The position numbers were made by a program, and so were the translations under genes. From Dehalococcoidia bacterium (lineage in GTDB: Bacteria; Chloroflexota; Dehalococcoidia; UBA6926), in assembly GCA_045562535.1 (NCBI GenBank), contig JBJKVP010000006.1, forward strand, positions 88,413-152,412: a stretch of DNA of 64,000 nt, written 5' to 3'. Every line of letters begins with the position of its first letter. Within the stretch, counting starts at the first letter, position 1. The notes beneath the pieces were generated by a model. That model saw nothing but the letters and a program-made list of their open reading frames with translations, was not told the DNA's origin and searched no databases. Shown here piece by piece: positions 3,815 through 64,000 of this stretch.

Positions 3815-3891
<77 letters not shown>

Positions 3892-3991
3892 ACATTGGTT
3901 ATATTAAACCTATAATTGGGTAATTCCTATTGGTACTTATATTATCTATGCCCCAGATGTTCCATGTACCTTATCGATGTTAAGAGCTCTT

Positions 3992-4762
3992 TTATAAGAC
4001 TCCTTGAATTATCAGGCGTGATCCCATCACCAGAAAAGCAACCAAAAGAATTTTACGGAATGTATCTTGTGGTACCTTCTTTCGTATTAATTCTCCTATT
4101 CTGAATCCTATTAGTGTAATTATTAAACCTATTAGTGACTGTAGAGCTGTCTCAATGTTTAAAATGCCCGATATAAATAACCCGAGTGCTAAAGGTAAAG
4201 ACCCTGATAAAAATAAGAAACCCGTGATACTAATAAATTCATCTCTCGAATAGTTCTTGCTTATCAAATACATGACTACAGGCGGAGCCCAAATTGAACT
4301 TAACCCTCCTAGTATTCCTGCGCTTAAACCAAGGGGAACATGCCATTTATAACTGCTACCTACGGGCATTTTTATGCCAAACATTGTTTGTAACGAGAAA
4401 ATTACCATGGCAAATCCTATTGTCATGGTTAATAAAGATTGGGGGTACGAGGTTATAAACATTGAAGTAATTAAAATACTTATCATTATTGATAGCGAAA
4501 AATACTTATACGTAATCGCGACCCTTAAGGGGTTTGGGGATCGAATATATTGGGCAAAATTTGTCACGAAGATTGGGATTGTTAGTAAAGGTATTGCGGC
4601 TGTAGGTTCCATTACTAGTGTGAGTAGAGCCATTACAGTTGTTGGTAACCCCATACCAAGGAATCCTTTTATGATTCCTGCGACTAGAAACGTTGATATT
4701 AAAAAGACGAGTATTACAGGGTTTGCAGTGGGCAAGAATAGGTTTAGATATTCCATGTCCAA
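3992..4762 (-). CDS. TauE/SafE (TSUP, DUF81) family anion/sulfite-type permease
   Basis: 256 aa, about 8 TM segments, Gly-rich helices (GIIKGFLGMGLP, GILGGLSSIWAPP) typical of the TSUP family. TTG start with GGAGAG upstream. Confidence 0.7.
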   Translation of the reverse strand: MDMEYLNLFLPTANPVILVFLISTFLVAGIIKGFLGMGLPTTVMALLTLVMEPTAAIPLLTIPIFVTNFAQYIRSPNPLRVAITYKYFSLSIMISILITSMFITSYPQSLLTMTIGFAMVIFSLQTMFGIKMPVGSSYKWHVPLGLSAGILGGLSSIWAPPVVMYLISKNYSRDEFISITGFLFLSGSLPLALGLFISGILNIETALQSLIGLIITLIGFRIGELIRKKVPQDTFRKILLVAFLVMGSRLIIQGVL

Positions 4763-4790
4763 TTTATCTCTCCAAAACTAAAATATCGAA

Positions 4791-4829
4791 TCCGAAGACC
4801 GATGCTCTAAACCGCTGAGCTACGGGGGC
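4791..4829 (-). pseudogene. tRNA-Arg 5'-half fragment (positions 1 to end of anticodon loop only)
   Basis: Reverse complement is GCCCCCGTAGCTCAGCGGTTTAGAGCATCGGTCTTCGGA, 37/39 identical to 3853-3891. The following sequence (TTCGATATTTTAG...) has no anticodon-stem partner or T-arm. Confidence 0.75.
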
Positions 4830-5948: not shown

Positions 5949-6434
5949 TTAGTTCTTGATTAACTTGGTTATGGAAACAGCATCTGGTTGTGCTCCTGTT
6001 TGTCGCCATAATTCATTTCCTTTCTCATCAAAGACTAAAACTGCAGGGACAAGTTGGATTTCATAATCCTCTCTAATTTTTCTGCCAGACTCAGTATTGA
6101 TGTCTACTCGAATAAACTGAGCTTTAGACTCCAGTTCTTTTTCTAGCCGGTCCAAGAGCGGCTTGGCTGAAAGGCATCCTAGTCAACGATTTGAATAAAA
6201 TGAAACTACCACCTTATCGCCCCCTCCAACGAGGGTTTCAAAATCTTGGGATTTTTGTAGGGAACTACTGTTGCTGCTTAAACTGATTTGAAGAAAACTT
6301 AAGCTTACTATAGCAATCAATAGGATGCCCCATTTCCAAATACTTCCTCCATCTAATTTCAACAATACAATAACGATGAACGCGATAATGAAACCAGAAA
6401 CTATCAGGAACGAATTTTCGTTAAGCGTATTCAT
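5949..6434 (-). CDS. membrane-anchored thioredoxin-fold protein with in-frame TGA (6183-6185) at the first position of the CxxC motif; candidate selenoprotein (U-L-G-C), or a pseudogene
   Basis: ORF fragments 6183..6434 and 5949..6155 are in the same frame, separated by TGA plus 9 sense codons. The joined protein has 2 TM helices followed by VVVSFYSNR-[TGA]-LGCLSAKPLL...FIRVDI...QLVPAVLVFDEKG. That is a thioredoxin/TlpA-like layout with a cis-Pro motif. The downstream fragment has only a TTG 'start' and no SD. Confidence 0.55.
6152..6166 (-). promoter_or_regulatory. hairpin CCAAG-CCGCU-CUUGG beginning 16 nt after the in-frame UGA (possible bacterial SECIS upper stem)
   Basis: Perfect 5-bp inverted repeat with a 5-nt loop containing G. 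The loop G lies 26 nt from the U of UGA. The stem is short, so this is weak evidence on its own. Confidence 0.3.
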
Positions 6435-6448
6435 AATGAATTTGGATT

Positions 6449-6691
6449 TTATCGATTATTACTGTTGTTATTTTCAGCAATGACATCGAGTAAAGCTAGA
6501 GCAGCGGCTTGAATTTGTGCCTCCATCTCAACATGTGTATCCCCATGCTCTTCTCTTCCATGACGATCTCGAGCATGAGCGAAAGGATCATATGTAGGGC
6601 TCTGAGGTTCTAAACGTTGCTGGTTTGCCTGTGTTTGTGCAAAGAGAAATTCCTTAAACTTTAGTTCTAATTCTTTTCTGGATAATGTCAT
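6449..6691 (-). CDS. hypothetical small protein (80 aa, His/Glu-rich centre HARDRHGREEHGDTHVEME)
   Basis: ORF lies directly upstream of, and on the same strand as, the thioredoxin-fold gene. I recognise no family. Confidence 0.4.
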   Translation of the reverse strand: MTLSRKELELKFKEFLFAQTQANQQRLEPQSPTYDPFAHARDRHGREEHGDTHVEMEAQIQAAALALLDVIAENNNSNNR

Positions 6692-6751
6692 AAGTGCTCT
6701 CCTTTTTACATTTATATTTGTTGTGTATAAAAAAGTTTTAATTCAAAAGGG

Positions 6752-6827
6752 GGTGGGCGATGGGATTCGAACCCACGATCACCAGAGCCACAATCTGGAG
6801 CCTTAAACCAGCTTGGCCACGCCCACC
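6752..6827 (-). tRNA. tRNA-His (anticodon GUG) with encoded G-1, no encoded CCA
   Basis: Reverse complement is G-GTGGGCGTGGCCAAGCTGGTTTAAGGCTCCAGATTGTGGCTCTGGTGATCGTGGGTTCGAATCCCATCGCCCAC-C. Anticodon loop TTGTGGC. Confidence 0.9.
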
Positions 6828-25294: not shown

Positions 25295-27499
25295 ATGAAC
25301 GATGTTTCTCCAGAGATCCTTGCCGAACTATCTTTGACACAAGATGAGTACAAATTAATCCTGAAAAGTTTACAACGGACTCCAAATGAGCTTGAGTTAG
25401 GAATGTTTGGGATATTGTGGAGTGAACATTGTGGTTATAAACATTCAAAAAACCTACTTAGAACTTTCCCTAATACATCTCCAAGGGTTTTAATTGGCCC
25501 TGGTGAAGAGAATGCAGGCGCAGTTTCTATAGGAGACGGTCTGGCGGTAGTTATGAAAATCGAATCTCATAATCATCCGTCTGCTATCGAGCCGTATGAA
25601 GGAGCTGCTACGGGCGTTGGTGGGATTGTCAGAGATATTTTTAGTATGGGTGCGCGTCCTATTGCTTTGCTTAACGCTCTATTTTTTGGCCCACTTAATG
25701 AAAGCCCACGTAATGTTTTTCTTTTTGATGGAGTGGTTGCTGGTATTGGTGGATATGGGAATTGTATTGGCATACCCGATATAGGAGGTCAAGTCACCTT
25801 TGAACGCCCATATAATGGTAATCCATTGGTTAACGCAATGTGTGTTGGAATAGCACCAGAAGATGAACTTGTTAGAGCACAAACTGGGGGCAAAGGAAAC
25901 AGTTTGTTGCTTGTTGGAGCAGATACCGGTAGGGATGGGATACATGGCGCAACCTTTGCTTCCGTGGACTTAACTGCGGAATCCGAAGAACGGAAAACAG
26001 CGGTACAGGTCGGGAACCCTTTCTTGGAAAAAGTTTTGCTGGAAGCGTGCCTCGAGATAGCAAGTGAAGGTGCTTTGATTGGTATGCAAGATCTTGGAGC
26101 AGGAGGCCTGACAAGCGCAGTCATTGAGAGCGCAGCCAGTTCAGGTAGTGGGATTGATATTGATGTGGCACTTGTGCCAAGGAGCGAAGAAGGGATGACT
26201 CCCTACGAGATTATGTTATCTGAATCCCAAGAGCGCATGTTAATCGTTGTAAATGATGACCAATATCAATCCGCTAAAAAGATTTTTGAGAAATGGGATC
26301 TATCGTGCGTGAAGATCGGAACTGTAATCGATGGAGACACTGCAATAATTAGAGACTCTGGAGTTATTGTTGGTGAATTACCAATCAGCTCACTGGTGAA
26401 TGCTCCTGCCTACGACATTCAAGGACAAGAGGATACAAAAATCATAAATTTAAGGAATGAATCTTTAGAGACTTTAGATGAGCCAACCGATAGGAACCGT
26501 ACCCTATTGAAAATGCTAGATTATGGCAATATTGCGAGCAAGAAATCAGTTTACCGTCAATATGATCACCAGGTGGGCAATAATACCCTTATTGCCCCAG
26601 GAGCAGGAGATGCTGCTGTCATGAGGATAAAAGGCACGAAAAAGGGAATAGCGTTAACCGTAGATGTTAACCCTCTAGCCTGCTATTTAGACCCATATGT
26701 TGGCGGGGCTTTGGCAGTAATAGAGGCCGCTCGTAATATTTCATGCGTTGGTGCTACTCCCTTGGCTATCACCGACTGTTTAAATTTTGGAAACCCCGAA
26801 CGCCCAGAGATTGCTTATCAATTGACAGAAGCAATAAGAGGAATGGCAGATGCCTGTCGTGAATTGGAACTTCCAGTTATAAGCGGAAATGTTAGTTTAT
26901 ATAACGAATCGCAGGATGGAGCAATTTATCCAACCCCTACTGTAGGGATGGTTGGTTTGTTGGAAGATGTGGAACATAGAAACGGAGCTGGGTTTGTCTC
27001 AGAAGGAGATCAGATTTTCTTGCTCGGTAGGGAGAATTTGGAATCCCAAATACAAGATTTAGGTGGGTCTAGTTATTTATCTGTGATACATGGGAAAATA
27101 AGTGGTGCTCCACAATTAGATTTCAGTCTTGAGAAAAATGTCCAAGGATTTATTCGAGATGCGAGTAATAAAAATTTAATCAATTCAGCCCACGATGTTT
27201 CTGAAGGAGGTCTTATTGTTGCGATTGCTGAATCTTGCATAATGGGTAATATGGGAGCCTCAATCAGTGAACCCCTACCCAAAGAAGCTTCTTTGGATTC
27301 CTGCCTATTCGCTGAAACTCCTGGTAGGATCGTTGTTTCAGTTTCCCAAACTGTTGCCAATGAGTTCAAATCGCTTGCAATGGAGTCACAAATACCTATA
27401 TATTCTTTGGGTGTCGTAAGTGGGGACAAGCTCAAATGGGCTGGCACAATCGACGTTTCTCTCGAGAGCCTAAGGGAAGCTTGGGAAGAAGCACTTTAA
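25295..27499 (+). CDS. purL: phosphoribosylformylglycinamidine synthase subunit II
   Basis: 734 aa with LGMFGILWSEHCGYKHSK, ESHNHPSAIEPYEGAATGVGG and duplicated AIR-synthase-like domains. Confidence 0.95.
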   Translation: MNDVSPEILAELSLTQDEYKLILKSLQRTPNELELGMFGILWSEHCGYKHSKNLLRTFPNTSPRVLIGPGEENAGAVSIGDGLAVVMKIESHNHPSAIEPYEGAATGVGGIVRDIFSMGARPIALLNALFFGPLNESPRNVFLFDGVVAGIGGYGNCIGIPDIGGQVTFERPYNGNPLVNAMCVGIAPEDELVRAQTGGKGNSLLLVGADTGRDGIHGATFASVDLTAESEERKTAVQVGNPFLEKVLLEACLEIASEGALIGMQDLGAGGLTSAVIESAASSGSGIDIDVALVPRSEEGMTPYEIMLSESQERMLIVVNDDQYQSAKKIFEKWDLSCVKIGTVIDGDTAIIRDSGVIVGELPISSLVNAPAYDIQGQEDTKIINLRNESLETLDEPTDRNRTLLKMLDYGNIASKKSVYRQYDHQVGNNTLIAPGAGDAAVMRIKGTKKGIALTVDVNPLACYLDPYVGGALAVIEAARNISCVGATPLAITDCLNFGNPERPEIAYQLTEAIRGMADACRELELPVISGNVSLYNESQDGAIYPTPTVGMVGLLEDVEHRNGAGFVSEGDQIFLLGRENLESQIQDLGGSSYLSVIHGKISGAPQLDFSLEKNVQGFIRDASNKNLINSAHDVSEGGLIVAIAESCIMGNMGASISEPLPKEASLDSCLFAETPGRIVVSVSQTVANEFKSLAMESQIPIYSLGVVSGDKLKWAGTIDVSLESLREAWEEAL

Positions 27500-32528: not shown

Positions 32529-33062
32529 GTGAAAAAAAACCTAAAACCAATAATAGCTATAGCAGTTCTGCTTGGCGTCGTTGGTGTTTTACTTACCGTA
32601 GTTGCACCTAAGGCCGTCGCTTTTGTGTATCCGTTACCTGAAAACGAAGTAGTTTTCCCGCATGATTTTCATGCCGGTACTCTGGCCCTTGAATGCCAAT
32701 TCTGTCACACAGGTGCCGAGAACACTCGAGGGGCTAATGTGCCCGCTCTAGAACAGTGTATGTTTTGTCACAAGGTGGCGGGTTTGGAGAATCCAGAGGC
32801 AAAGAAGGTAAGAGTAGCTTGGGAATCTCAGGAACCCTTGAATTGGATTAGACAACACCGTTTACCTGACCATACTCATTTTAGGCATGAACCTCATATC
32901 ACCGCAGGATTTGAATGTTCTACGTGTCATGGAGACGTTGCGGCGATGAAACAAGTTGTCCAGGTGAAAACTGAAAAAGCTGGAGACCTCAAAATGGGAG
33001 ATTGCGTAGCTTGTCATAAGGAGAACGGAGCACCTCTTCAGTGTTCTACATGTCATAATTAG
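32529..33062 (+). CDS. actA: Alternative Complex III pentahaem cytochrome c subunit
   Basis: N-terminal TM anchor plus five CxxCH motifs (CQFCH, CMFCH, CSTCH, CVACH, CSTCH). First gene of the cluster. Confidence 0.8.
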   Translation: MKKNLKPIIAIAVLLGVVGVLLTVVAPKAVAFVYPLPENEVVFPHDFHAGTLALECQFCHTGAENTRGANVPALEQCMFCHKVAGLENPEAKKVRVAWESQEPLNWIRQHRLPDHTHFRHEPHITAGFECSTCHGDVAAMKQVVQVKTEKAGDLKMGDCVACHKENGAPLQCSTCHN

Positions 33063-33096
33063 ATAGTTAATATTTGTAAGGATTGGAAGGAATAAG

Positions 33097-35373
33097 ATGG
33101 ATCTCACTCGGCGAGACTTTTTGAGAGTAGCTGGAGCATCATCTGTTGCTGGCATATTGTTTGCGGGCTGTGCTATTCCTGAAAGAGAACTTATAAAACA
33201 AAGCCCAAGAGATATGCCTGAAGATTTAGCTACAGGTACAGAAGATTGGTACGCGACTCAATGCGGTATCTGCAATGAGCATCATGGAATCATCGTCCGA
33301 GTTTTAGAAGGACGAGCAAAGAAGATTGAAGGGAACCCAGATCACCCCACCAACCGAGGTCGACTATTGCCGACTTGCTTGAGTGGGGTTCAATCACTTT
33401 ACCATCCTGATCGGCTTACAACTCCTATGGCAGGGGATACTCCTATCAGTTGGGATGATGGAATGAAGAGGGTCGTCGATGCTTTTAATAGTAATAACTC
33501 TAAGAGGACACTTCTTATAACAGGCGCTGACACCACGCTTTTATCTCATGTGGTAGATGAATTTGTAGACGCTTCTGGAATCGAGCATATGGTTCTTGAA
33601 GATCTTGAAGATACTGTACTACGCAATGCCGTCAGCGATATTTTTGGCGAAGACGGGATTCCTCATTTTGATATCCAGAACGCTAAGACCGTTTTATCTA
33701 TAGGAGCAGACTTTTTAGAGTCATGGGTTGCACCCCTACAATACAGCAGAGCATATGGAGAATTTCGAAGCTCTGAAAATAGTGGGACAGGTGTCCGCGG
33801 CCACTTGATATATGCGGGCCCCAGATTTTCGATGACAGCTGCAAATGCCGATCAGTGGCTTCCTATTGCTCCAGGTCAGGAAAGTAATTTCGCTTTAAGC
33901 GTTGCCTACGTACTAATACGAGATAATTTAGCAGATGCATCAGTAGTGGATAAGATGACTAATGGCCGAGGGGCGACTGCGCTAGCTGCGTTTGCTCCAG
34001 AGACTATAGCTCCCCTCATAGGCGCTACCGAAGGTGTAATTTCGCCTAAGGATATCGAAGATGTAGCTAAGCATTTATCAGAAGAATCGCCCGGACTTGT
34101 TTTAGCAGGTGGCTCTGCGTCGGCTCAACAAAATGGTAACTTGAATATTAAGGCATCACTTTTAATTAATGCCCTACTTGGCAACATTGGAAAACAAGGT
34201 GGGATTCAATGGACCACAGACTCCCCTCTTAGAGAGCTGAATAATTTTAAAGCACCTAATACTTTTGCTGATTGGAAATCTGTAACTCAAAGGATGGACC
34301 AAGGCGAATTTGATTTAGTTTTAATTCATGGAGCCAACCCGGTGCACAATTTAGAAGTTCTTGATTTCAAAGATAAGCTATCTAAAGTTGGGTCAATTAT
34401 ATCTTTCTCTCCGATTATGGATGAAAGTGCAGAGCTGGCAAATTTGGTTCTACCTGATCAAAATTATTTGGAGACTTGGAATATTGGCGTTCCGAACCCA
34501 AACCCTGGGTACCCTGTATTGACACTTCAGCAACCGGTGGTTCCCGCATTACTTAATGAAGAAAATGAGATTGTCTACGATAATCGCCCATTTGGCGATA
34601 TTTTGACACACGTTGGTCAAGAACTTGGTTACAAATCGATCGCCTGGGAAAATATGGAAGATCTTGTGAAAACTAAAATGTCAGAGGTGCACAGGCGAAA
34701 TAGAGGAAGAGGCTCGATTCAAGGGGCGACTTTTGAGGCGTTTTGGGCAGGAGTGCTCCAGCGAGGTGGCTGGTGGGATACGAAAGCTCAGCAAACCAAT
34801 CTTGGGCCTGTTATAGCATCATTATCTGACACGGAACTTACTGTACAAAACAGCCCGACCGAAGCTGAGGATAGCGGTGTTTATCACCTTGTTCCTTTTG
34901 TTAGCGTGGGACTTGGTTCGGGGTCACAAAGCTATTTGCCGTGGCCGCAATCGACTCCCGACCCTGTGACTTCGGTAGTATGGGAGACTTGGGTAGAGGT
35001 TAATGCTCGTGAGGCGAAAAGACTTGGTTTGCGAGATGGGGACATAGTGAACGTTGAATCAGTAACTACTGGGGAGGAATCTTCAGTCATTCAGGCACCG
35101 GTTTATATACACCCTGGGATACCTCCTAATGTAGTGGGCATCCCTATGGGTAGAGGGCATACTGCATCAGGCAGATATGCAAAAGACTTTGGAACGAATG
35201 TAAGAAAACTTTTGTCCATCAGTGAAGTCGAAGGCACAGGAGCCCAGGCTTGGGGAGTTAGCAAGGTGACAATTAGTGGTACGGGCCAAAGGCTTCGATT
35301 ACCTCGTATGGAGGGTGGAATAACTGGTATGCAACTCGAAGGAACACATATTATTCAAGTTACGGGAAGTTAG
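33097..35373 (+). CDS. actB1: ACIII molybdopterin-oxidoreductase-like subunit (ActB, B1 part), Tat signal
   Basis: RRDFLRVAG twin-arginine motif followed by LFAGC. 758-aa Mo-bisPGD-enzyme-like fold. The N-terminal FeS motif is degenerate (CGICNEHH). Confidence 0.8.
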   Translation: MDLTRRDFLRVAGASSVAGILFAGCAIPERELIKQSPRDMPEDLATGTEDWYATQCGICNEHHGIIVRVLEGRAKKIEGNPDHPTNRGRLLPTCLSGVQSLYHPDRLTTPMAGDTPISWDDGMKRVVDAFNSNNSKRTLLITGADTTLLSHVVDEFVDASGIEHMVLEDLEDTVLRNAVSDIFGEDGIPHFDIQNAKTVLSIGADFLESWVAPLQYSRAYGEFRSSENSGTGVRGHLIYAGPRFSMTAANADQWLPIAPGQESNFALSVAYVLIRDNLADASVVDKMTNGRGATALAAFAPETIAPLIGATEGVISPKDIEDVAKHLSEESPGLVLAGGSASAQQNGNLNIKASLLINALLGNIGKQGGIQWTTDSPLRELNNFKAPNTFADWKSVTQRMDQGEFDLVLIHGANPVHNLEVLDFKDKLSKVGSIISFSPIMDESAELANLVLPDQNYLETWNIGVPNPNPGYPVLTLQQPVVPALLNEENEIVYDNRPFGDILTHVGQELGYKSIAWENMEDLVKTKMSEVHRRNRGRGSIQGATFEAFWAGVLQRGGWWDTKAQQTNLGPVIASLSDTELTVQNSPTEAEDSGVYHLVPFVSVGLGSGSQSYLPWPQSTPDPVTSVVWETWVEVNAREAKRLGLRDGDIVNVESVTTGEESSVIQAPVYIHPGIPPNVVGIPMGRGHTASGRYAKDFGTNVRKLLSISEVEGTGAQAWGVSKVTISGTGQRLRLPRMEGGITGMQLEGTHIIQVTGS

Positions 35374-35399
35374 ATAATTATGAATGGAGTGAGTGACAG

Positions 35400-36119
35400 A
35401 TGTCAGATGTAAAATGGGGAATGGTCGTCGATGTTGATAAATGCTCGGGATGCCAGGCATGTGTTATAGCCTGTATGGCAGAAAATAATATTCCAATTAA
35501 TTTAGACCGTGATTTTAAAGAGAATCGGTCGATTGCATGGATTCGCATAGAAAGATATTGGGAAGGCGAATATCCAGATGTAAAAGCAAGATTTTTACCG
35601 GTTTTGTGCCAGCATTGCGGGAATGCTCCTTGCGAGCCCGTTTGCCCAGTCTATGCAACATTCCATAATGATCAAGGTATGAACATCCAGGTTTATAATC
35701 GTTGTGTCGGCACCCGGTATTGCGCAAATAATTGCCCTTACCATGCTAGATATTTTAATTATCGTCGTCCCACTTGGCCAGAAACATACAATAACTACCT
35801 AAATCCAGATGTCACTGTCCGAGATCGAGGCATAATGGAAAAATGTAGTTTTTGTGTTCAAAGAATTAATGCTGCGACCCGAATTGCAAAACGAGATGGG
35901 AATGAAGATGCTATTGCAGGACTTCAGACCGCCTGTGCACAGGCGTGCCCAACCGATGCTCTGGTTTTTGGTAATCTTAATAATCCAGATAGCCAAGTAT
36001 CTCAGCTATACGATGACGAAAGGTCATACGTACTACAGGAATCCATAGGAACTCAGCCTAATATAAGGTATCTAAAGAAAATTGATGAACATGCTGCTGA
36101 AAAGGCACATGCTCACTAG
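35400..36119 (+). CDS. actB2: ACIII iron-sulfur subunit (ActB, B2 part)
   Basis: Ferredoxin-type Cys clusters CSGCQACVIAC, CQHCGNAPCEPVCP, CVGTRYCANNCP, CSFCVQRI, CAQACP. Confidence 0.85.
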   Translation: MSDVKWGMVVDVDKCSGCQACVIACMAENNIPINLDRDFKENRSIAWIRIERYWEGEYPDVKARFLPVLCQHCGNAPCEPVCPVYATFHNDQGMNIQVYNRCVGTRYCANNCPYHARYFNYRRPTWPETYNNYLNPDVTVRDRGIMEKCSFCVQRINAATRIAKRDGNEDAIAGLQTACAQACPTDALVFGNLNNPDSQVSQLYDDERSYVLQESIGTQPNIRYLKKIDEHAAEKAHAH

Positions 36120-36145
36120 AAAAAAAGGACGGAAAGAATACAAGA

Positions 36146-37549
36146 ATGCAAAATACTGATGGAAATGAAGTGGTAAATCCTGGGGCACCTGCGACCCAGG
36201 AAGATCTTACTCAAGAACTGCTCCATGACTCTCTTCAGACAGGATCTAGGATGCGCAAAGCATTGCTGATCTCTGGTGTGTTATCGATTCTTGGATTCGT
36301 AGGCCTTTTTATGCATTTTGCTAGCGGAACTAGCGACCATACAACCTGGAATTTTTATGCTGTTGTATATTTTTATGTATTTTCTGTGACCATGGGGATA
36401 CCTATGGCGAGCATTGGGCTGAGGATGGCGCGTGCGCAGTGGCGGCGCCCTACTAGTAGATCTGCGGAGCTATTTGCAATAGCTGGGCCAATTAATTTGA
36501 TATTCTTCATACCAATTTTATTGGTTGCTCCTCCAATTGAAGGAAGAAATAGCTTATGGATGGATTGGGCCCTTGCGCCGTGGTTCCCAGATATAATAAT
36601 GATGGTGTTATTAGTGGTGACAGGGTTAGCATTTTTGTATGTTTCGCTGCTTCCTGATTTAGCTAGCGTTAGAGATCATGGGACCGGGAGAGCCCAGAGG
36701 GTAGCAAAAACCTTGTCTAGAGACTGGAATGGAACGAAATCTCAGTGGTCGATTCATAAGTCGGCGTTAGGTATTTTAGGAGCGTTCTACATAACAGCAT
36801 ATGCTATGACTCATCTGGTTTTATCTACTGATTTTGCCATGACTTTGGTTCCTGGATGGAAGGACCCTATTTTCCCGGCATTTCATGCTGTTACAGGGAT
36901 CCAGATGGGTGCAGCCTTACTAATAGTTACTATGTACTTATTACGCCGTTTAGGTGGCCTCGGGAGATACTTCGAGCTAGAACAATTCTGGGGGTATAGT
37001 CGTTTACTACTTGCACTTAGTTTGTTTTATTTCTACTTCTGGTGGTGTGCTTTTATTTTATTCTGGTATGCTCGCTTACCACATGAGCAATCTGTAGTGG
37101 CATTGTTTATTTCCGGAGACTATGCTGATCCAAATGTTTTTACTAGGCCTCAGTTCTTAATGTTTGTGGGAGCCATAGGATTTTCCTTCATTCTCCCATT
37201 CCTTTTACTGATGTGGAATATTCTACGGCGTAGCATAGTTGCCCCTACGATTGTGGGTGTAATTGTGCTTATAGGTGGATTTTTCGATCGTATGAGATTA
37301 TACGCTAACTCTTGGTCTGTTGATCAGGTAGGCGGGCATGGGCTACATCACATACCAGAGGTGAATGCCCCGACAATTCCTGACCTTTTTGTATTGATTG
37401 GCATGGTGTCTTCTATACTATTCTTATACTTACTGGTTTCAAGAGTAGTTGGATTTGTGTCCTTATGGGAGACCAGACAAGCATTACTCTTAAGATTTGT
37501 TAAACCATGGGGCGTTGGCCACGCAAGCGTGGTAATTAAACCGGAATAA
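36146..37549 (+). CDS. NrfD/PsrC-like integral membrane subunit, divergent (ActF-like?)
   Basis: 467 aa, polytopic, with the NrfD-type region MARAQWRRPTSRSAELFAIAG. More divergent than the next gene. Confidence 0.65.
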   Translation: MQNTDGNEVVNPGAPATQEDLTQELLHDSLQTGSRMRKALLISGVLSILGFVGLFMHFASGTSDHTTWNFYAVVYFYVFSVTMGIPMASIGLRMARAQWRRPTSRSAELFAIAGPINLIFFIPILLVAPPIEGRNSLWMDWALAPWFPDIIMMVLLVVTGLAFLYVSLLPDLASVRDHGTGRAQRVAKTLSRDWNGTKSQWSIHKSALGILGAFYITAYAMTHLVLSTDFAMTLVPGWKDPIFPAFHAVTGIQMGAALLIVTMYLLRRLGGLGRYFELEQFWGYSRLLLALSLFYFYFWWCAFILFWYARLPHEQSVVALFISGDYADPNVFTRPQFLMFVGAIGFSFILPFLLLMWNILRRSIVAPTIVGVIVLIGGFFDRMRLYANSWSVDQVGGHGLHHIPEVNAPTIPDLFVLIGMVSSILFLYLLVSRVVGFVSLWETRQALLLRFVKPWGVGHASVVIKPE

Positions 37550-37614
37550 GGATTGGAGTGCAGAATTGATTTTGAATATTAATGGGGATTTAGAGGAGAT
37601 AGAAAGAGCGTAAC

Positions 37615-39006
37615 ATGCAAGATCGACCCACATTAACGCCTACACAGATCAACGACGAGTTACTGTGGCCTGTTTTCTCCTTTAGAAAACGGCACGCGGT
37701 AGCATTCATTCCGCCGATGATATTGTTAATGGGTGGCGTAGCAGCTGTTACTATCCTTATCTATCAAGGACTTTGGGTTACCGGACTGCAGAGGCCCGCC
37801 TTTTGGGGATTTTTCATTGTTAATTTCGTTTTCTGGATTGGGGTGAGCCACGCGGGGACTATGATTTCCGCAATATTGCGTTTGACCCAAGCAGAATGGA
37901 AGAGACCTATTACAAGAGCAGCTGAGGTCATGACAATATTTTCTTTGGTGACTTCATTATTACACCCTGTTATTCACGCCGGTAGACCTTGGCGGATTAT
38001 ATATTGGTTACTACCTTACGATTTTTCGAGAGGTATATGGCCTGACGTTCGGTCTCCTCTCGTTTGGGACCCAATAGCAATAACAACCTATTTAACAGGT
38101 AGCGTATTGTTCGTTTTCACAGCGTTGATACCAGATTTTGCATTGATTCGTGATCAGAGTACCGGACTTAGGAAGAAAATTTATGGGAGTTTGGCTTTCG
38201 GTTGGAGAGGGACTCCCAGACAATGGAAATTGCAAGGAATATTTGGAATATTGATGTCAGCACTGATTCTTCCAGTTTTCGTTTCGGTTCATAGTATAGT
38301 TTCTTGGGATTTCGCGGTCTCAGTCGTTCCTGCGTGGCACGTTACCGTTTATGCGCCATATTTTGTTATCGGTGCTGTTCATTCGGGAGTCTCCATGGTT
38401 TTGACATTGATGGCTCTTATGAGATGGATATTCAAATTAGAGAATTATATCTGGGAAGATCATTTTGACGCAGTTGGGAGACTTTTAATAGTAATCGCCA
38501 CCTTGTGGTTATTTTTCTTTTTCCTTGATTTTGCGTTCTCATTTTATACGAGAGAAGAGCAAGAGTTGGCAGTGATGGAAAGACGTCTTTTCGAATGGCC
38601 CTTTAATGCTATTACGGTGATCATGGTGTTCACTTCATATGTTATTCCTATACCATTGTGGTTAAGTAGGAGAGTACGAAGGAATATTCCATTGATGTTC
38701 TGGACATCTATACTTGTCAATATTGGTATGTGGCTAGAGAGATATTTCCTGATAATACCTGCGATCGAGCGCAAAAATGAGCTTACCTTCCTTTGGTCTA
38801 ATTATGTTCCGAGTTTGATTGAGAGCTTGGTAGTGTTGGCGTCCTTTGGTATGGTTGGCTTCTTGTTATTACTTTTTGCGAAAGTTGTTCCTTTGGTTCC
38901 TGCTTGGGAAGCGAAGGAGGGAGTAGTATTCAGAGAAGATGTCCAATTCGGAGAAGTAGTACTTCCCGGAATTATTAAAGAAACAGAAGAGGAAAATGTT
39001 TGGTAG
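37615..39006 (+). CDS. actC: NrfD/PsrC-like quinol-interacting membrane subunit (ActC-like)
   Basis: 463 aa with FWGFFIVNFVFWIGVSHAGTMISAILRLTQAEWKRPITRAAEVMTIF, typical of the NrfD family. Confidence 0.75.
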   Translation: MQDRPTLTPTQINDELLWPVFSFRKRHAVAFIPPMILLMGGVAAVTILIYQGLWVTGLQRPAFWGFFIVNFVFWIGVSHAGTMISAILRLTQAEWKRPITRAAEVMTIFSLVTSLLHPVIHAGRPWRIIYWLLPYDFSRGIWPDVRSPLVWDPIAITTYLTGSVLFVFTALIPDFALIRDQSTGLRKKIYGSLAFGWRGTPRQWKLQGIFGILMSALILPVFVSVHSIVSWDFAVSVVPAWHVTVYAPYFVIGAVHSGVSMVLTLMALMRWIFKLENYIWEDHFDAVGRLLIVIATLWLFFFFLDFAFSFYTREEQELAVMERRLFEWPFNAITVIMVFTSYVIPIPLWLSRRVRRNIPLMFWTSILVNIGMWLERYFLIIPAIERKNELTFLWSNYVPSLIESLVVLASFGMVGFLLLLFAKVVPLVPAWEAKEGVVFREDVQFGEVVLPGIIKETEEENVW

Positions 39007-39030
39007 TGGTCGTTGTTAAGGAGCTTCGAA

Positions 39031-39552
39031 ATGGCGGATAATAAAGATTTAATGGGTGTTTTTGCAGATACAGATACTGCGGCAGAGGGCGCTCGCCAAT
39101 TAAAGAGTGCTGGGTTTGTACAGGATGATTATGATGTTCTTACTGGCAACCCTTACCCCGAGGGAGCCTTTGGTGAGCATGTAAAACCGAATCGTCTGTT
39201 TGTCTTTGCTTTAGCGGGGGGCTTTGTTGGCTTTGCTATAGCATTCTTATTTACTGCAGCAACCCAAACTGCTTGGCCGTTAGTTACTGGCGGAAAACCA
39301 ATTCTGGCACTACCGGCAATGATGATAATTATGTATGAAATGACTTTGTTGTTTGCCATGATTTTCACCGTTACTGGTGTGATTTTTGAAAGTAGATTGC
39401 CTAGGCTTGGTGGCGAAGGACCTGTATACGACACAAGAATTACTTTGGGGTATATAGGTTTAATAGTCACTACTACTGAAGATCGCTTAGAAAAGGCAGA
39501 GGAAGCTTTTAAGGCGGCCGGTGCTGAGGATATAGTGAGGGAGTCATCCTAG
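39031..39552 (+). CDS. actD: ACIII subunit ActD (DUF3341-like)
   Basis: MADNKDLMGVFADTDTAAEGARQLKSAGF soluble head plus 2 TM. Start at ATG 39031 (AAGGAG upstream). Confidence 0.7.
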   Translation: MADNKDLMGVFADTDTAAEGARQLKSAGFVQDDYDVLTGNPYPEGAFGEHVKPNRLFVFALAGGFVGFAIAFLFTAATQTAWPLVTGGKPILALPAMMIIMYEMTLLFAMIFTVTGVIFESRLPRLGGEGPVYDTRITLGYIGLIVTTTEDRLEKAEEAFKAAGAEDIVRESS

Positions 39553-39554
39553 AA

Positions 39555-40232
39555 GTGAAACTACTTAATCAGCTGATGCAAAAACAGCGTTCAAATAAAC
39601 TATCCGTTGCTGGGAAAAAACGAGTGATGGCAGTATCTGCCGTGTTATTTTTTCTTCTAAGCGGGTGTTCTGTAGGAGCTTATCCGGTCGATAACTTCCA
39701 AGAGATGCATTATTCACAGGCAATTCGGAGACAAGAAATGCCTGTTATGTCAGCACCTAGCAATTCTATTGGATATCAAGGAGCTGGAGGTCCTGCTGCC
39801 GAAGTCAGCGTACCCCCGGCGTATGATTTGATGAAACAAGAAGATTTGATTTTAGTCACGGCTAACCCTGTTGTTTTGAACGACCTTGTGCGCGATGAAG
39901 GAGAACAATTATTTATCCGTAATTGCGCGGTTTGCCACGGTATGGAAGGGGATTTGCAAGGTGGTGCTGGTCCAGCACTCTTGGCGGCTTCTTTTGAAGC
40001 GGCAGGGGTTAACCCTCCTTTAGATTTAACCTTAGGCGAAACGAAAAATAGAACGGATGGAGATATCTTTGGAATACTGACTCATGGTCAAGGCTCTATA
40101 CCGGCGCCGTCTGATGCTGTTGATCCTGAGGTATGGTCTACATTGACGAGCATGCCCTCGTTTTCAAAATTACTTACAACTGAACAACGGTGGGCAATTG
40201 TTCACCACTTGAGAAAACTGCAAGGCTCTTAA
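39555..40232 (+). CDS. actE: ACIII monohaem cytochrome c subunit ActE, probable lipoprotein
   Basis: Lipobox FLLSGC. Single CAVCHG haem motif with distal TSMPSF Met candidate. Start ambiguous (GTG 39555 or ATG 39576). Confidence 0.7.
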   Translation: MKLLNQLMQKQRSNKLSVAGKKRVMAVSAVLFFLLSGCSVGAYPVDNFQEMHYSQAIRRQEMPVMSAPSNSIGYQGAGGPAAEVSVPPAYDLMKQEDLILVTANPVVLNDLVRDEGEQLFIRNCAVCHGMEGDLQGGAGPALLAASFEAAGVNPPLDLTLGETKNRTDGDIFGILTHGQGSIPAPSDAVDPEVWSTLTSMPSFSKLLTTEQRWAIVHHLRKLQGS

Positions 40233-55370: not shown

Positions 55371-56903
55371 ATGGTAAAAATTAGGTACTTTTTGGGGATG
55401 ATGGCTATAGCCTCTTTATTTATTTTTGTAGCGTGTGGAGGCGGAGAAACAAGTTCAAGTGAGACGGAGACTGTGAAACCTCAAGAAACGACCTCTACGG
55501 CATCTACAGAGGCACCTGCTCAAAAGGCAGAGGAGCCTAAGAAAGAAGAACCTAAGCCTGAGCCTAAGAAAGAAGAACCTAAGCCAGAACCTAAAAAAGA
55601 GGAGCCTAAGGCAGAACCTAAAAAAGAAGAGCCTAAGGCAGAACCTAAAAAAGAAGAGCCTAAACCAGAGCCCAAGGCAGAACCTAAGAAAGAAGAACCT
55701 AAACCAGATCCAGCTCAATATGCTGGACCAAATTTGGGCTTAAATACCAACAAGGTGTTCCCAATTCATGTACCAGCAGATGCAAGTGCTAAAGCAAGAC
55801 TGGTTAGCCTCGGTATTAACGTGCCCCAGACAGGCTCACTTGAGGAAGCGAATCATGAGTTTATGGCAGGATTAAATGTAGACCCAGGTTATAAAGAGCG
55901 TTGGGTGGAGCATCAGACCAGTATAAATAGCGTATTGGGAGCCTACCCGAACTTTATGATCATAGCTTATGATAAGAGTGGAACAGACGAAGATATTCAA
56001 GCAATTGGAAACCGACTTACCGAACTTCAATGGCCTGGTGACACTAATTCTAGTATGTATGTAGAGAACTGGACCGTTGATGCTCTGAACCAATACAAAA
56101 CGTGTCTTACTTCCGGTGACACAGGGGTAAGGAGAACGTCCACAAGCAACCCGCACAGTATGTGCATTATGGAATACCAAAAGTTTCGTGCCTATCGGTA
56201 CGATGCCGGTCTTCCGACAGCAAAAAATCACGCGCAATTAGCTATCCATGATGCCCATGAATATTTCCATCATTACCAGAAAGCCCATGCTCTGGAACGA
56301 GGGTTAGACCTTGCTTCAGATCCAGACAACCCTGAGACAACGGTACAAGCTCCAAGATGGTGGATAGAAGGAGCAGCGGTTAGTTTTTCCCATGCATGGT
56401 ATAAAGCTAACTGGGAGTCTCTATCATTTATGAAAGATCAAACAGTCATGTGGTATGGCCAAGAATACGATTTAGCGACTGCTAATATAGGTACTGTAGC
56501 CACAGCTCAAGATTTCAAAAACACAAAGAAACTAGTTAGAGGCGAGTTAGAAGGACATGAAATAGGTGCTGGTTGTACTTCAGACTGGAAACTACAAGAG
56601 AGTGAAGAAGACTCTGCAACGGAAACAAGGTGTTTCTCAAGTCTACAGGCTGTTGCTTATATGGCACATCTAACCTCATGGAAAACTGTTTGGATTGACA
56701 TACCCCAAGACTATTACGATCTCGGATTTTGGGGATCTTTTGAAAAGCATATAGGCATGGAAAAACAAGAATTCTATGACGCGTATAATAACCTCATGAC
56801 ATCTGGAGACGTAAACGATGCACCACCTGAAGGATGGACTGTTCCAGAAGGTGCAATATCAGAATATGCTGACTTTTTGAAAATAGTACCTGAGTCGGAT
56901 TGA
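55371..56903 (+). CDS. lipoprotein with KKEEPK(P/A)EP linker and HExxH...E (gluzincin-like) C-terminal domain, paralogue A
   Basis: Signal and lipobox YFLGMMAIASLFIFVAC-GGG, 6 linker repeats, HDAHEYFHH...WWIEGAAVSF. Confidence 0.65.
   Translation: MVKIRYFLGMMAIASLFIFVACGGGETSSSETETVKPQETTSTASTEAPAQKAEEPKKEEPKPEPKKEEPKPEPKKEEPKAEPKKEEPKAEPKKEEPKPEPKAEPKKEEPKPDPAQYAGPNLGLNTNKVFPIHVPADASAKARLVSLGINVPQTGSLEEANHEFMAGLNVDPGYKERWVEHQTSINSVLGAYPNFMIIAYDKSGTDEDIQAIGNRLTELQWPGDTNSSMYVENWTVDALNQYKTCLTSGDTGVRRTSTSNPHSMCIMEYQKFRAYRYDAGLPTAKNHAQLAIHDAHEYFHHYQKAHALERGLDLASDPDNPETTVQAPRWWIEGAAVSFSHAWYKANWESLSFMKDQTVMWYGQEYDLATANIGTVATAQDFKNTKKLVRGELEGHEIGAGCTSDWKLQESEEDSATETRCFSSLQAVAYMAHLTSWKTVWIDIPQDYYDLGFWGSFEKHIGMEKQEFYDAYNNLMTSGDVNDAPPEGWTVPEGAISEYADFLKIVPESD
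55530..55712 (+). repeat. in-frame 27-nt tandem repeat array (about 6 units, KKEEPK[P/A]EP)
   Basis: Direct reading of the sequence. Units are cct aag aaa gaa ga[a/g] cct aag [cc/gc]a ga[a/g]. Confidence 0.9.
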
Positions 56904-56948
56904 GAAATATAATTATGGCTTGAGCAGCCGATAGGAGAGTTAAGTTTA

Positions 56949-58460: not shown

Positions 58461-58481
58461 ATTCAAAGATAGGAGAGTTAA

Positions 58482-59903: not shown

Positions 59904-59914
59904 AGGGTGGCTTG

Positions 59915-63505: not shown

Positions 63506-63515
63506 GCGGCTTCCC

Positions 63516-64000
63516 CTAAGATTTTGGTATTTCACAGAAGTCACTGGAACTGACTGCTTTTCCTTCAAGTAGTTTTTGCGTCTCAGCACCGAATAGGTTG
63601 GCCCAACATATTCCGTGGCTAGCTGTTGCAGCGTACTGAGGGAAATCTCTCTCCATTATCTCTGATACATTATTTTTCTCACGCAAATCATAGACCCCGA
63701 AGTCTAAATAAGTATTGGTGGAATGCCCTATGGCGTACCCCAATACCTCTCCCGACTCTACGAAGTATTGGCCATCTGGCATGAAGGTTTCCCTTGAATC
63801 ATTTACTAGCACTGGTACGCTTGCAGTGATTTCGGACCATCGGTCAGTGATTTGGGCAATATGATCTATCATGATTTTTATTCCGCAAGGATGATGAAAA
63901 TGAAGCTTGACCTGCTCTTCATCTGTAGAAGTTTTTCCATGAACGGAGTAGTCCTGCAGCCGACGGCTTGCAGCATATAGACTGAATCCTTCAGCAGGAA
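63516..64000 (-). CDS. partial CDS (N-terminus off-window), paralogue of the two lipoproteins above
   Basis: The frame stays open from 64000 down to the TAG at 63516, and the ORF-track ATG at 63872 is internal. Contains MIDHIAQ and GEVLGYAIGHSTNTYLDFGVYDL. Confidence 0.5.
   Translation of the reverse strand, partial: PAEGFSLYAASRRLQDYSVHGKTSTDEEQVKLHFHHPCGIKIMIDHIAQITDRWSEITASVPVLVNDSRETFMPDGQYFVESGEVLGYAIGHSTNTYLDFGVYDLREKNNVSEIMERDFPQYAATASHGICWANLFGAETQKLLEGKAVSSSDFCEIPKS

What the first reader, a model, noticed from the sequence alone, without database searches (positions are those of the whole stretch)
5949..6434. In-frame TGA at the first Cys of a thioredoxin-fold redox motif (U-L-G-C): candidate membrane-anchored selenoprotein
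ORF fragments 6183..6434 and 5949..6155 (minus strand) are in the same frame, separated only by TGA (6183-6185) and 9 sense codons. The joined translation is two N-terminal TM helices, then ...GGGDKVVVSFYSNR-[TGA]-LGCLSAKPLLDRLEKELESKAQFIRVDINTESGRKIREDYEIQLVPAVLVFDEKGNELWRQTG... This is the beta1 / CxxC / alpha1 / beta2 / cis-Pro(VPA) / beta3 order of thioredoxin, TlpA and ResA-like proteins. The TGA falls exactly where the first Cys of CxxC belongs, and the resolving Cys is retained. The downstream fragment has only a TTG 'start' and no SD. The upstream fragment alone would end one residue before the active site. A hairpin CCAAG-CCGCU-CUUGG (6166-6152) begins 16 nt after the TGA. TGA is a genuine stop elsewhere in the window (uvrA, 49882, 56903, 62464), so this is site-specific: Sec recoding, a fresh nonsense mutation, or an assembly error.
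Basis: partly seen in the sequence, partly recalled or inferred. Interest (0 to 1): 0.8.

Follow-up and report, generated by a model that had tools for sequence, protein, structure and literature searches.

The report
Membrane-anchored thioredoxin-fold selenoprotein gene
The in-frame TGA almost certainly encodes selenocysteine at the active site of a small membrane-anchored thioredoxin-like enzyme of a marine Dehalococcoidia bacterium; the finding is real, but it is a well-known kind of marine selenoprotein that gene callers routinely split or mistranslate.

Summary
A 161-codon minus-strand gene (6434..5949) carries one in-frame TGA (6185-6183).

- **Active-site position:** the TGA sits where the first Cys of the thioredoxin CxxC motif belongs.
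- **Conserved TGA:** five orthologous loci (79-83% aa identity; four distinct sequences) have TGA at the same codon. So do ten more loci (nine distinct genes, about 30% identity). None has TGG. This excludes an assembly error or a fresh nonsense mutation.
- **Cys homologues:** at least 30 full-length homologues have Cys at that column.
- **Downstream translation:** the downstream part is under purifying selection in the same frame.
- **SECIS-like hairpin:** nt 23-41 after the U of UGA (window 6163-6145) form a hairpin in all 15 Sec-form genes compared. Six of seven pairs show compensatory change. Two Cys-form genes lack it.
- **Fold:** an AlphaFold model (pLDDT 92.9) shows two transmembrane helices plus a classical thioredoxin fold.
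- **Not shown:** no selA, selB, selD or tRNA-Sec lies in this window, and the rest of the genome could not be searched.

UxxC thioredoxin-like selenoproteins have been known from marine metagenomes since 2005, so this is a new member of a known kind.

The parts
5949..6434 (-). Complete selenoprotein gene: 161 codons plus TAA stop (5951-5949), ATG start at 6434-6432
   Evidence: Searches give the frame. Searches show orthologues collinear over the full length with pN/pS 0.10-0.43 on both sides of the TGA.
6357..6413 (-). Transmembrane helix 1 (about residues 8-26), preceded by the family motif N-x-x-S-F
   Evidence: AlphaFold model has helix 8-26 at pLDDT about 96. The segment is hydrophobic in 40 family members.
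6279..6344 (-). Transmembrane helix 2 (about residues 31-52). The short loop before it carries the Lys/Arg residues.
   Evidence: AlphaFold model has helix 31-52.
5952..6254 (-). Thioredoxin-fold domain (residues 61-161)
   Evidence: Pfam PF00085 covers residues 61-151, E=1.5e-9. PDB thioredoxins match at E=3.6e-8. Foldseek gives TM 0.75-0.83 (normalised by target) and rmsd about 2 A to classical thioredoxins.
6183..6185 (-). In-frame TGA, codon 84: predicted selenocysteine, the attacking residue of the U-L-G-C redox motif at the N-terminus of helix alpha1
   Evidence: TGA is conserved in 15 fetched related loci (13 distinct sequences). Cys occupies this column in at least 30 full-length homologues. 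It aligns to the first Cys of WCGPC.
6174..6176 (-). TGC, codon 87: resolving Cys of the UxxC motif
   Evidence: Invariant in the alignment of 40 family members.
6145..6163 (-). Conserved SECIS-like hairpin: nt 23-29 pair with nt 35-41 (U of UGA = 1). The loop is 6156-6152 (CUUGG here, NGUUN in most relatives). It is built from the codons AAG CCG CUC UUG GAC CGG CUA (K-P-L-L-D-R-L).
   Evidence: RNAalifold finds this helix unprompted. 89.5% of cells are paired against 20-43% when the partner is slid; 6 of 7 pairs show compensatory change; the covariation score exceeds 500/500 shuffles. Energy is -7.5 kcal/mol in the window. Two Cys-form genes lack it.
6152..6166 (-). It overlaps the conserved hairpin and is mutually exclusive with it.
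   Evidence: -4.5 kcal/mol. It is disrupted in L001 and L003 (C21A, G33A) and absent from more distant members.
6045..6047 (-). CCT, codon 130: cis-Pro of the thioredoxin active-site loop (V-P-A)
   Evidence: Invariant in 40 family members. It aligns to the cis-Pro of thioredoxin.

Best explanation
The gene encodes one 161-residue polypeptide. Its UGA codon 84 is decoded as selenocysteine.

**Decoding (inferred by analogy with E. coli fdhF):** while translating, the ribosome meets UGA. An mRNA hairpin 20 nt further on (nt 23-41, window 6163-6145) is bound by the Sec-specific elongation factor SelB carrying Sec-tRNA(Sec). Sec is inserted instead of termination.

**Product:** a classical thioredoxin domain whose attacking Cys is replaced by Sec (U-L-G-C, with the resolving Cys and cis-Pro kept). 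Two N-terminal helices tether it to the membrane as a hairpin. The positive-inside rule suggests, weakly, that the domain faces outward.

**Likely role:** a membrane-tethered thiol/selenol-disulfide oxidoreductase. Its substrate and its electron donor are unknown.

**Shown here:** the conserved TGA, the Sec/Cys pairing, coding selection downstream, the conserved covarying hairpin specific to Sec forms, and the fold.

**Inferred, not shown:** actual Se insertion, SelB binding, topology and substrate.
For: 1. **TGA at the same codon.** It is present in five orthologous loci from independent assemblies (L001-L005; four distinct sequences, 79-83% aa identity, pS up to 0.8). It is also present in ten loci of more distant members (L006-L014; nine distinct genes, about 30% identity). 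Public catalogues show these as 'W', yet all ten loci fetched are TGA and none is TGG.
2. **Cys at the column.** In the 40-member family alignment the column holds only Cys (30) or TGA (10). Of 66 motif-bearing hits, 38 have Cys, 12 have TGA and 15 are fragments that begin 1-2 residues after it.
3. **Downstream translation.** The downstream frame is under purifying selection, pN/pS 0.21-0.43. The nine codons between the TGA and the TTG show almost only synonymous changes. The TTG is TTA in L001, L003 and L005, so re-initiation is not possible there.
4. **Hairpin at nt 23-41.** RNAalifold predicts it independently. With 15 sequences, 89.5% of cells pair against 20-43% in slid controls; 6 of 7 pairs show compensatory changes; the covariation score is 0.498 against 0.236+-0.035 (0/500 shuffles reach it). 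Local folding gives -4.3 to -10.2 kcal/mol in 12 Sec forms, against 0.0 and -0.7 in two Cys forms.
5. **Rare codons held in the stem.** The stem uses rare synonymous codons (CGG 8.4% of Arg, AAG 27% of Lys, CTA 14.5% of Leu), and these are invariant in the close orthologues.
6. **Arg/Gly column.** Arg or Gly occupies the stem-forming column in 26/27 Sec forms against 19/38 Cys forms, p=3.7e-5.
7. **Site specificity.** In L010 the same gene ends at a TGA stop while its codon-84 TGA is internal. In the window, 6 of 46 long ORFs end in TGA.
8. **Fold.** Pfam, PDB sequence search, AlphaFold2 pLDDT 92.9 with Sec at the N-terminus of alpha1, and Foldseek hits to classical thioredoxins.
9. **Lineage.** The window is collinear at 86-88% nt identity with a Dehalococcoidia MAG. 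The BSepDB paper lists Dehalococcoidia MAGs with 46-49 selenoprotein genes (PMC13326102).
Against: - No selA, selB, selD or tRNA-Sec was found in the 64 kb window or in the fetched flanks. The rest of the genome could not be searched.
- In the window's own clade the apical loop lacks the G31-U32 seen in the other members: it is CUUGG in the window and CUUAG in L001 and L003. The stem there carries one or two internal mismatches (C28/C36; C27/C37).
- Synonymous sites in the 45 nt after the TGA are no more conserved overall than in the rest of the gene.
- Full-length MFE folds of the 60-100 nt after the TGA are not better than shuffles, z = +0.6 to -1.0.
- Part of the stem's conservation could come from the conserved K-P...D-R-L peptide. 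Only two Cys-form DNAs were available as a control.
- No Rfam model matches, although bacterial SECIS elements are not well modelled there.
- There is no protein-level or selenium evidence.
Confidence: 0.9

Rival explanations
1. UGA codon 84 is read through as a standard amino acid (Trp, Cys or Gly). This would happen by near-cognate or suppressor decoding helped by local context, without the Sec machinery.
For: No Sec machinery was seen in the window. Public gene callers translate the codon as W. The loop of the window clade lacks the G-U seen in the other members.
Against: - No family member has TGG at the column; all ten 'W' loci checked are TGA.
- The only sense alternative found is Cys, the isosteric partner of Sec and the catalytic nucleophile.
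- A hairpin specific to the TGA forms, with compensatory changes, sits in the bacterial SECIS register.
- TGA is a real stop in the window and in the same gene in L010.
- Dehalococcoidia are reported to be rich in selenoproteins (PMC13326102).
Confidence: 0.05
2. The gene is genuinely split. It would give an 83-residue two-helix membrane peptide that ends one residue before the active site, plus a separately initiated C-terminal fragment.
For: Standard ORF calling gives exactly these two pieces. Public catalogues hold them as separate proteins, P0002 and P0003.
Against: - The TTG start of the downstream piece is TTA in three orthologues.
- The nine codons upstream of it, which hold the resolving Cys, change almost only synonymously.
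- A thioredoxin fold without beta1 and the active-site turn would not fold.
- The AlphaFold model of the joined chain is confident throughout.
- Cys-form homologues are single chains.
Confidence: 0.02
3. The TGA is a sequencing or assembly error, or a recent inactivating mutation (pseudogene).
For: None beyond the bare presence of a stop codon.
Against: The same TGA appears in independent assemblies from ENA, JGI and GTDB sources, at synonymous divergence up to 0.8, with purifying selection on both halves.
Confidence: 0.01

Closest known systems
Marine 'Thioredoxin' / 'Trx-like 1 (COG0526)' UxxC selenoproteins of the Sargasso Sea and GOS selenoproteomes (Zhang, Fomenko & Gladyshev 2005, PMC1088965; Zhang & Gladyshev 2008, PMC2398784)
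   Same: - Thioredoxin fold, with Sec replacing the first Cys of CxxC, and many Cys homologues.
- A bacterial SECIS-type hairpin just downstream of the UGA.
- Three Sargasso entries (AACY01000927, AACY01011298, AACY01037136) have the same ...YSDY-U-L-G-C... motif, an N-terminal hydrophobic stretch, and a hairpin in exactly the same register (nt 23-41, loop AGUUR).
- BLASTP of the window protein against AACY01011298 gives E=9e-11.
- Cys homologues of the window family carry COG0526 / 'thiol-disulfide isomerase/thioredoxin' labels.
   Different: - Only 22% identity to those Sargasso sequences.
- They lack the K-P...D-R-L motif, and their stem sequence is entirely different (AAUUCAU/AUGAAUU).
- The window family is centred on Chloroflexota/Dehalococcoidia and has a defined two-helix anchor.
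- I could not check the GOS Trx-like 1/2/3 sequence sets, because that part of Dataset S1 is cut off in the held copy.
Classical thioredoxin (TrxA; PF00085, TIGR01068)
   Same: Same fold, with best structural matches at TM 0.75-0.83 and rmsd about 2 A. The active site sits at the N-terminus of alpha1, and the cis-Pro loop is present.
   Different: - It scores 51.7 bits against the TIGR01068 cut-off of 96.8.
- The motif is U-L-G-C rather than C-G-P-C, and the Trp before the active site is missing.
- It has a two-helix membrane anchor, whereas TrxA is soluble and cytoplasmic.
Membrane-anchored extracytoplasmic thiol-disulfide oxidoreductases (TlpA, ResA, CcmG/DsbE; cyanobacterial TxlA/slr1796)
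   Same: A thioredoxin-fold redox domain tethered to the membrane. Charge distribution suggests the domain may face outward. There are weak HMM hits to TlpA, ResA, DsbD-gamma and slr1796 models.
   Different: - Two transmembrane helices instead of one anchor or a lipobox.
- The Redoxin/AhpC-TSA type HMMs are below threshold.
- The fold search ranks classical thioredoxins first, not TlpA or ResA.
- There is no cytochrome c maturation gene nearby, and the neighbourhood differs between family members.
E. coli fdhF SECIS / bacterial SECIS consensus (from my own knowledge of Zinoni/Heider/Bock and of Zhang & Gladyshev's bSECISearch model)
   Same: A stem-loop inside the coding sequence a short distance 3' of UGA. 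It has a small apical loop, usually containing G-U, and the loop lies about 27-31 nt after the UGA.
   Different: The stem starts 20 nt after the UGA rather than immediately. The loop of the window clade is CUUGG/CUUAG rather than containing G-U at its 5' side. SelB binding is untested.

Membership tests
Bacterial selenoprotein gene (Sec-encoding UGA) | In-frame UGA conserved at the same codon in at least two different homologous sequences | tested here: met
   15 fetched related loci (13 distinct sequences) plus 3 Sargasso sequences all carry TGA at the column.
Bacterial selenoprotein gene (Sec-encoding UGA) | Homologues with Cys aligned to the UGA (Sec/Cys pair) | tested here: met
   30 of 40 aligned full-length members have Cys and the other 10 have TGA. 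Two Cys forms were checked at DNA level: TGC and TGT.
Bacterial selenoprotein gene (Sec-encoding UGA) | Sequence downstream of the UGA is translated in the same frame | tested here: met
   pN/pS is 0.21-0.43 downstream. The putative restart codon is not conserved.
Bacterial selenoprotein gene (Sec-encoding UGA) | SECIS stem-loop shortly downstream of the UGA, with a small apical loop containing G | tested here: met
   The helix at nt 23-29/35-41 is conserved with compensatory changes at 6 of 7 pairs. The loop is NGUUN in most members. In the window it is CUUGG, which contains G but not G-U at the usual place. Cys forms lack it.
Bacterial selenoprotein gene (Sec-encoding UGA) | selA, selB, selD and tRNA-Sec present in the same genome | not testable with these tools
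   None is present in the 64 kb window or the fetched flanks. The literature reports selenoprotein-rich Dehalococcoidia MAGs (PMC13326102).
Bacterial selenoprotein gene (Sec-encoding UGA) | Selenium actually incorporated at the site | not testable with these tools
   This needs 75Se labelling or mass spectrometry.
Thioredoxin superfamily (Pfam PF00085) | HMM match above the gathering threshold | tested here: met
   38.2 bits against 23.5, E=1.5e-9.
Thioredoxin superfamily (Pfam PF00085) | beta-alpha-beta-alpha-beta-beta-alpha fold, with the CxxC-type motif at the N-terminus of alpha1 and a cis-Pro loop | tested here: met
   AlphaFold2 pLDDT 92.9. Elements are E75-80, H85-101, E106-111, H115-123, E131-135, E141-146 and H152-160. 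Foldseek gives TM up to 0.83 to thioredoxins. C87 and P130 are invariant.
Canonical thioredoxin TrxA (NCBIfam TIGR01068 equivalog) | Score above the curated equivalog cut-off | tested here: not met
   51.7 bits against a cut-off of 96.8. No NCBIfam model, including the selenoprotein-specific ones, reaches its cut-off.
TlpA/ResA/CcmG-type membrane-anchored oxidoreductases | Redoxin/AhpC-TSA-type domain match and a single N-terminal anchor | tested here: not met
   Redoxin scores 16.9 bits against a cut-off of 26.6. TlpA and ResA models are far below their cut-offs. There are two transmembrane helices. Structural neighbours are classical thioredoxins.
Sargasso/GOS 'Thioredoxin / Trx-like 1 (COG0526)' UxxC selenoproteins | UxxC motif in a COG0526-type thioredoxin domain, with sequence similarity to deposited members | tested here: met
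   U-L-G-C motif. Cys homologues are labelled COG0526/K03671. BLASTP against AACY01011298 gives E=9e-11 with the same motif and the same SECIS register. Assignment to the GOS sub-groups Trx-like 1, 2 or 3 could not be checked.

The most novel reading that the evidence does not exclude
This would be a distinct family that no curated model covers. It is centred on Chloroflexota: a thioredoxin held by a two-helix hairpin, with an outward-facing Sec/Cys active site. Its SECIS hairpin is written into the K-P...R-L codons, so the RNA requirement visibly constrains the protein: Arg/Gly is fixed in Sec forms and free in Cys forms. On this reading it is a clean natural example of a SECIS shaping an amino-acid sequence, and a possible extracytoplasmic selenoenzyme in an aerobic marine bacterium.
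Probability: 0.3. Interest if true: 0.45.

Novelty: new member of a known kind. Interest (0 to 1): 0.3.

Why it matters
**Annotation.** The gene is mis-annotated wherever I found it. It appears either as two short ORFs (P0002 and P0003) or as a 'Trp' protein produced by code-4 gene calling on short contigs (P0001, P0006, P0007 and others). Neither Pfam nor NCBIfam has a model specific to the family. Recognising it adds one entry to the selenoproteome of marine Dehalococcoidia and gives a simple signature for finding the rest: [YQ]S-x-x-U-x-x-C-x-x-x-K-P-x-x-D-R-L plus a hairpin at +23..+41.

**Biology.** It is one more case of Sec replacing the attacking Cys of a thioredoxin-fold oxidoreductase, which has been the commonest theme in marine selenoproteomes since 2005. 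A specialist would not be surprised.

**Modest extra interest.** Two points stand out: the membrane hairpin anchor, with a possibly outward-facing Sec, and the clear coupling between the SECIS stem and the Arg codon.

Tried and rejected
- **Word-index protein search:** the joined protein found only one relative. The exhaustive phmmer search was needed to see the family.
- **Whole-stretch RNA folding:** MFE folds of the 60-100 nt after the TGA gave unremarkable z-scores and inconsistent structures. With only the four close orthologues, RNAalifold gave a weak consensus without covariation. The hairpin became clear only with distant members.
rejected as the functional element because it is not conserved.
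- **Rfam:** no SECIS match in gathering or permissive mode.
- **Sec machinery:** 40 of the 46 long ORFs of the window were scanned against Pfam, and none is selA, selB or selD. The AIRS-domain protein at 25295-27499 is purL-like, not selD. ARAGORN found no tRNA-Sec in the window or the loci.
- **Other selenoprotein candidates in the window:** none found.
- **GOS sub-family assignment (Trx-like 1/2/3):** searching the paper's sequence supplement failed because the held file is cut before those sections. The 'new' GOS families in Dataset S2 contain no U[VIL][AG]C motif.
- **TlpA/ResA-like assignment:** considered and rejected.
- **Reassigned genetic code (table 4 or 25):** considered and rejected.
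- **Promoter and terminator scan around the gene:** uninformative.
- **One DNA look-up (P0072):** returned no DNA.

Full report
**Observation.**
On the minus strand, ORF fragments 6183..6434 (ATG, 83 aa) and 5949..6155 (TTG, 68 aa) share one frame. They are separated by TGA at 6185-6183 and nine sense codons. The joined 161-residue product matches Pfam Thioredoxin (PF00085, E=1.5e-9, 38.2 bits against a cut-off of 23.5). In phmmer alignments to solved thioredoxins, the TGA falls on the first Cys of WCGPC and V-P-A falls on the cis-Pro loop. TGA is a genuine stop elsewhere: 6 of 46 long ORFs end in TGA. No other frame in the window has a TGA with a redox-type motif outside a long ORF.

**Is the TGA real and maintained?**
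The only close hit of a word-indexed search was a 161-aa metagenome 'protein' with W at the column. Its DNA has TGA there, because the gene caller had used a TGA=Trp code on a 526-bp contig. Scans of genome and metagenome collections returned four more orthologous loci. One is from a Dehalococcoidia MAG (JAPYRO010000006.1). All have TGA at the same codon.

L003 and L004 are identical in this gene, as are L001 and L005, so these five loci give four distinct sequences. Against the window they are 79-83% identical in protein, with synonymous divergence of 0.2-0.8. Both halves are under purifying selection: pN/pS is 0.10-0.17 upstream and 0.21-0.43 downstream. That TTG is TTA in three of the loci, so a restart is not available. 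An assembly error, a fresh nonsense mutation and a split gene are therefore excluded for practical purposes.

**The family.**
An exhaustive phmmer search of 1.84 billion representatives gave 590 hits. The best full-length ones, at about 30% identity, share the architecture: a short N-terminus with N-Q-Y-S-F, two hydrophobic helices, then [YQ]S-x-x-[C/'W']-x-x-C-x-x-x-K-P-x-V-D-x-L-E...V-P-T-F.

In a 40-member alignment the column holds only Cys (30) or 'W' (10). S81, C87 and P130 are invariant. I fetched DNA for ten 'W' loci, representing nine distinct genes. All have TGA and none has TGG. Two Cys forms have TGC and TGT. Fifteen further hits are 73-83-aa fragments that begin one or two residues after the column. 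These are probably the downstream halves of other TGA-split genes. In L010 the gene's true stop is itself TGA, while its codon-84 TGA is internal, so the recoding is site-specific.

Sources name the Cys homologues 'thioredoxin family protein [Dehalococcoidia bacterium]', 'thiol-disulfide isomerase/thioredoxin' or COG0526/K03671.

**The RNA element.**
Folding the whole 60-100 nt after the TGA is uninformative. With the 12 Sec-form genes aligned by codon and without gaps, RNAalifold predicts a single helix: nt 23-29 pair with nt 35-41, counting the U of UGA as 1. In the window this is 6163-6157 pairing with 6151-6145. It is formed by the codons AAG CCG CUC UUG GAC CGG CUA.

The 2005 Sargasso Sea selenoproteome supplement lists three 'Thioredoxin' selenoprotein genes with the same ...YSDY-U-L-G-C... 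motif (AACY01000927, AACY01011298, AACY01037136; PMC1088965). They have a hairpin in exactly the same register but with an entirely different stem (AAUUCAU/AUGAAUU) and the loop AGUUR.

With all 15 sequences the counts are as follows:
- 89.5% of cells are paired, against 20-43% when the 3' partner is slid by 1-3 nt.
- 6 of 7 pairs show changes on both sides.
- The covariation score is 0.498, against 0.236+-0.035 in shuffles (0/500 reach it).

Local folding gives -4.3 to -10.2 kcal/mol for the 12 Sec forms, and 0.0 and -0.7 for the two Cys forms.

The 3' arm depends on an xGG Arg codon. In the window's close orthologues the rare codons CGG (8.4% of Arg), AAG (27% of Lys) and CTA (14.5% of Leu) are invariant. 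At protein level, Arg or Gly occupies that column in 26/27 Sec forms but only 19/38 Cys forms (Fisher p=3.7e-5).

There are caveats. The window clade has one or two internal mismatches in the stem. Its loop is CUUGG/CUUAG rather than NGUUN. Only two Cys-form DNAs were available as a control. Part of the conservation could come from the conserved peptide.

It exists only in the window and L002.

**The protein.**
AlphaFold2 on the 40-member alignment gives pLDDT 92.9 and pTM 0.83. It shows helices 8-26 and 31-52 as a hairpin, then alpha0, beta1 (75-80), alpha1 (85-101, starting right after residue 84), beta2, alpha2, beta3 (after P130), beta4 and alpha3. Foldseek against the PDB ranks classical thioredoxins first (TM 0.75-0.83 normalised by target, rmsd about 2 A), not TlpA or ResA. 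No NCBIfam model reaches its cut-off: thioredoxin TIGR01068 scores 51.7 against 96.8, and the selenoprotein-specific models are far below.

Lys and Arg cluster in the short loop between the two helices, and the segment after helix 2 is acidic. By the positive-inside rule this suggests an outward-facing domain. That is an inference only.

Gene neighbourhoods differ among family members: CrcB, an acetyltransferase, YajQ, and here a tRNA-His plus an 80-aa ORF upstream and a convergent epimerase. The context therefore gives no functional clue.

**Lineage and machinery.**
The window is collinear over more than 15 kb, at 86-88% nt identity, with the Dehalococcoidia MAG contig. It has about 41% G+C. 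It carries an alternative complex III cluster, metH, purL, dnaB and uvrA. None of the 40 long ORFs scanned is selA, selB or selD, and no tRNA-Sec was found. At 64 kb this is not informative, and the rest of the genome could not be searched.

From the literature:
- The BSepDB paper lists Dehalococcoidia MAGs with 46-49 selenoprotein genes (PMC13326102).
- Thioredoxin-like UxxC proteins (Trx-like 1, COG0526) are the third most abundant selenoprotein family in GOS (PMC2398784).

**Verdict.**
This is a selenocysteine-encoding UGA in a membrane-anchored thioredoxin-fold oxidoreductase. It has a family-specific SECIS-type hairpin. Confidence is about 0.9.

It meets the three bioinformatic criteria used in the field: a conserved TGA, Sec/Cys pairs and a SECIS-like structure (PMC1088965). 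Two things remain unshown: the Sec machinery in this genome, and selenium in the protein.

It is a new member of a well-known kind. Distant relatives with the same motif and the same hairpin register were already listed as 'Thioredoxin' selenoproteins in 2005. Interest is modest.

Noticed in passing
window 3848-4829 (tRNA-Arg 3815-3891; ORF 3992..4762, minus strand): A 44-nt direct repeat brackets a 938-bp segment. One copy (3848-3891) is the 5' part of tRNA-Arg(tcg); the other (4786-4829) is 91% identical. The segment carries a single TauE/SafE-family (sulfite exporter) gene. It is absent from the otherwise collinear relatives L002 and L003. This looks like a one-gene insertion next to a tRNA gene, or its loss by recombination in the relatives. 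No integrase was seen.
   Followed up: partly
L001, L006-L014 (public metagenome gene calls P0001, P0006, P0007, P0010, P0012, P0018, P0019, P0021, P0025): Public protein catalogues show the Sec codon as Trp, because short contigs were called with a TGA=Trp code. In L010 this also runs the product through the true TGA stop and adds a spurious 20-residue tail. Such 'W' forms could be mistaken for real Trp variants.
   Followed up: yes
window 32529-40232: There is a cluster for an alternative complex III (Act) type respiratory module. It comprises a multihaem cytochrome c7-like protein, a molybdopterin oxidoreductase-like subunit, a 4Fe-4S protein, an NrfD-like membrane subunit, ActD and a c-type cytochrome. 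This is consistent with an aerobic marine Dehalococcoidia of SAR202 type.
   Followed up: no
window, 46 long ORFs: TGA is the rarest stop codon: TAA 24, TAG 16, TGA 6. I did not test whether this relates to heavy use of Sec in the lineage.
   Followed up: no
window 55371-61264 and 62480-63589: Four consecutive large ORFs (510, 503, 473 and 450 aa), plus a 369-aa ORF on the minus strand, have no Pfam match at E<=1e-8.
   Followed up: no
window 6449-6691 (minus strand): An 80-aa ORF with no Pfam match lies between tRNA-His (6749-6827) and the selenoprotein gene, and ends 14 nt before its ATG. Its C-terminal end is visibly conserved in the sequence read upstream of the gene in L002, and the whole region aligns with L002, L003 and L005. 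It is not found next to more distant family members.
   Followed up: partly
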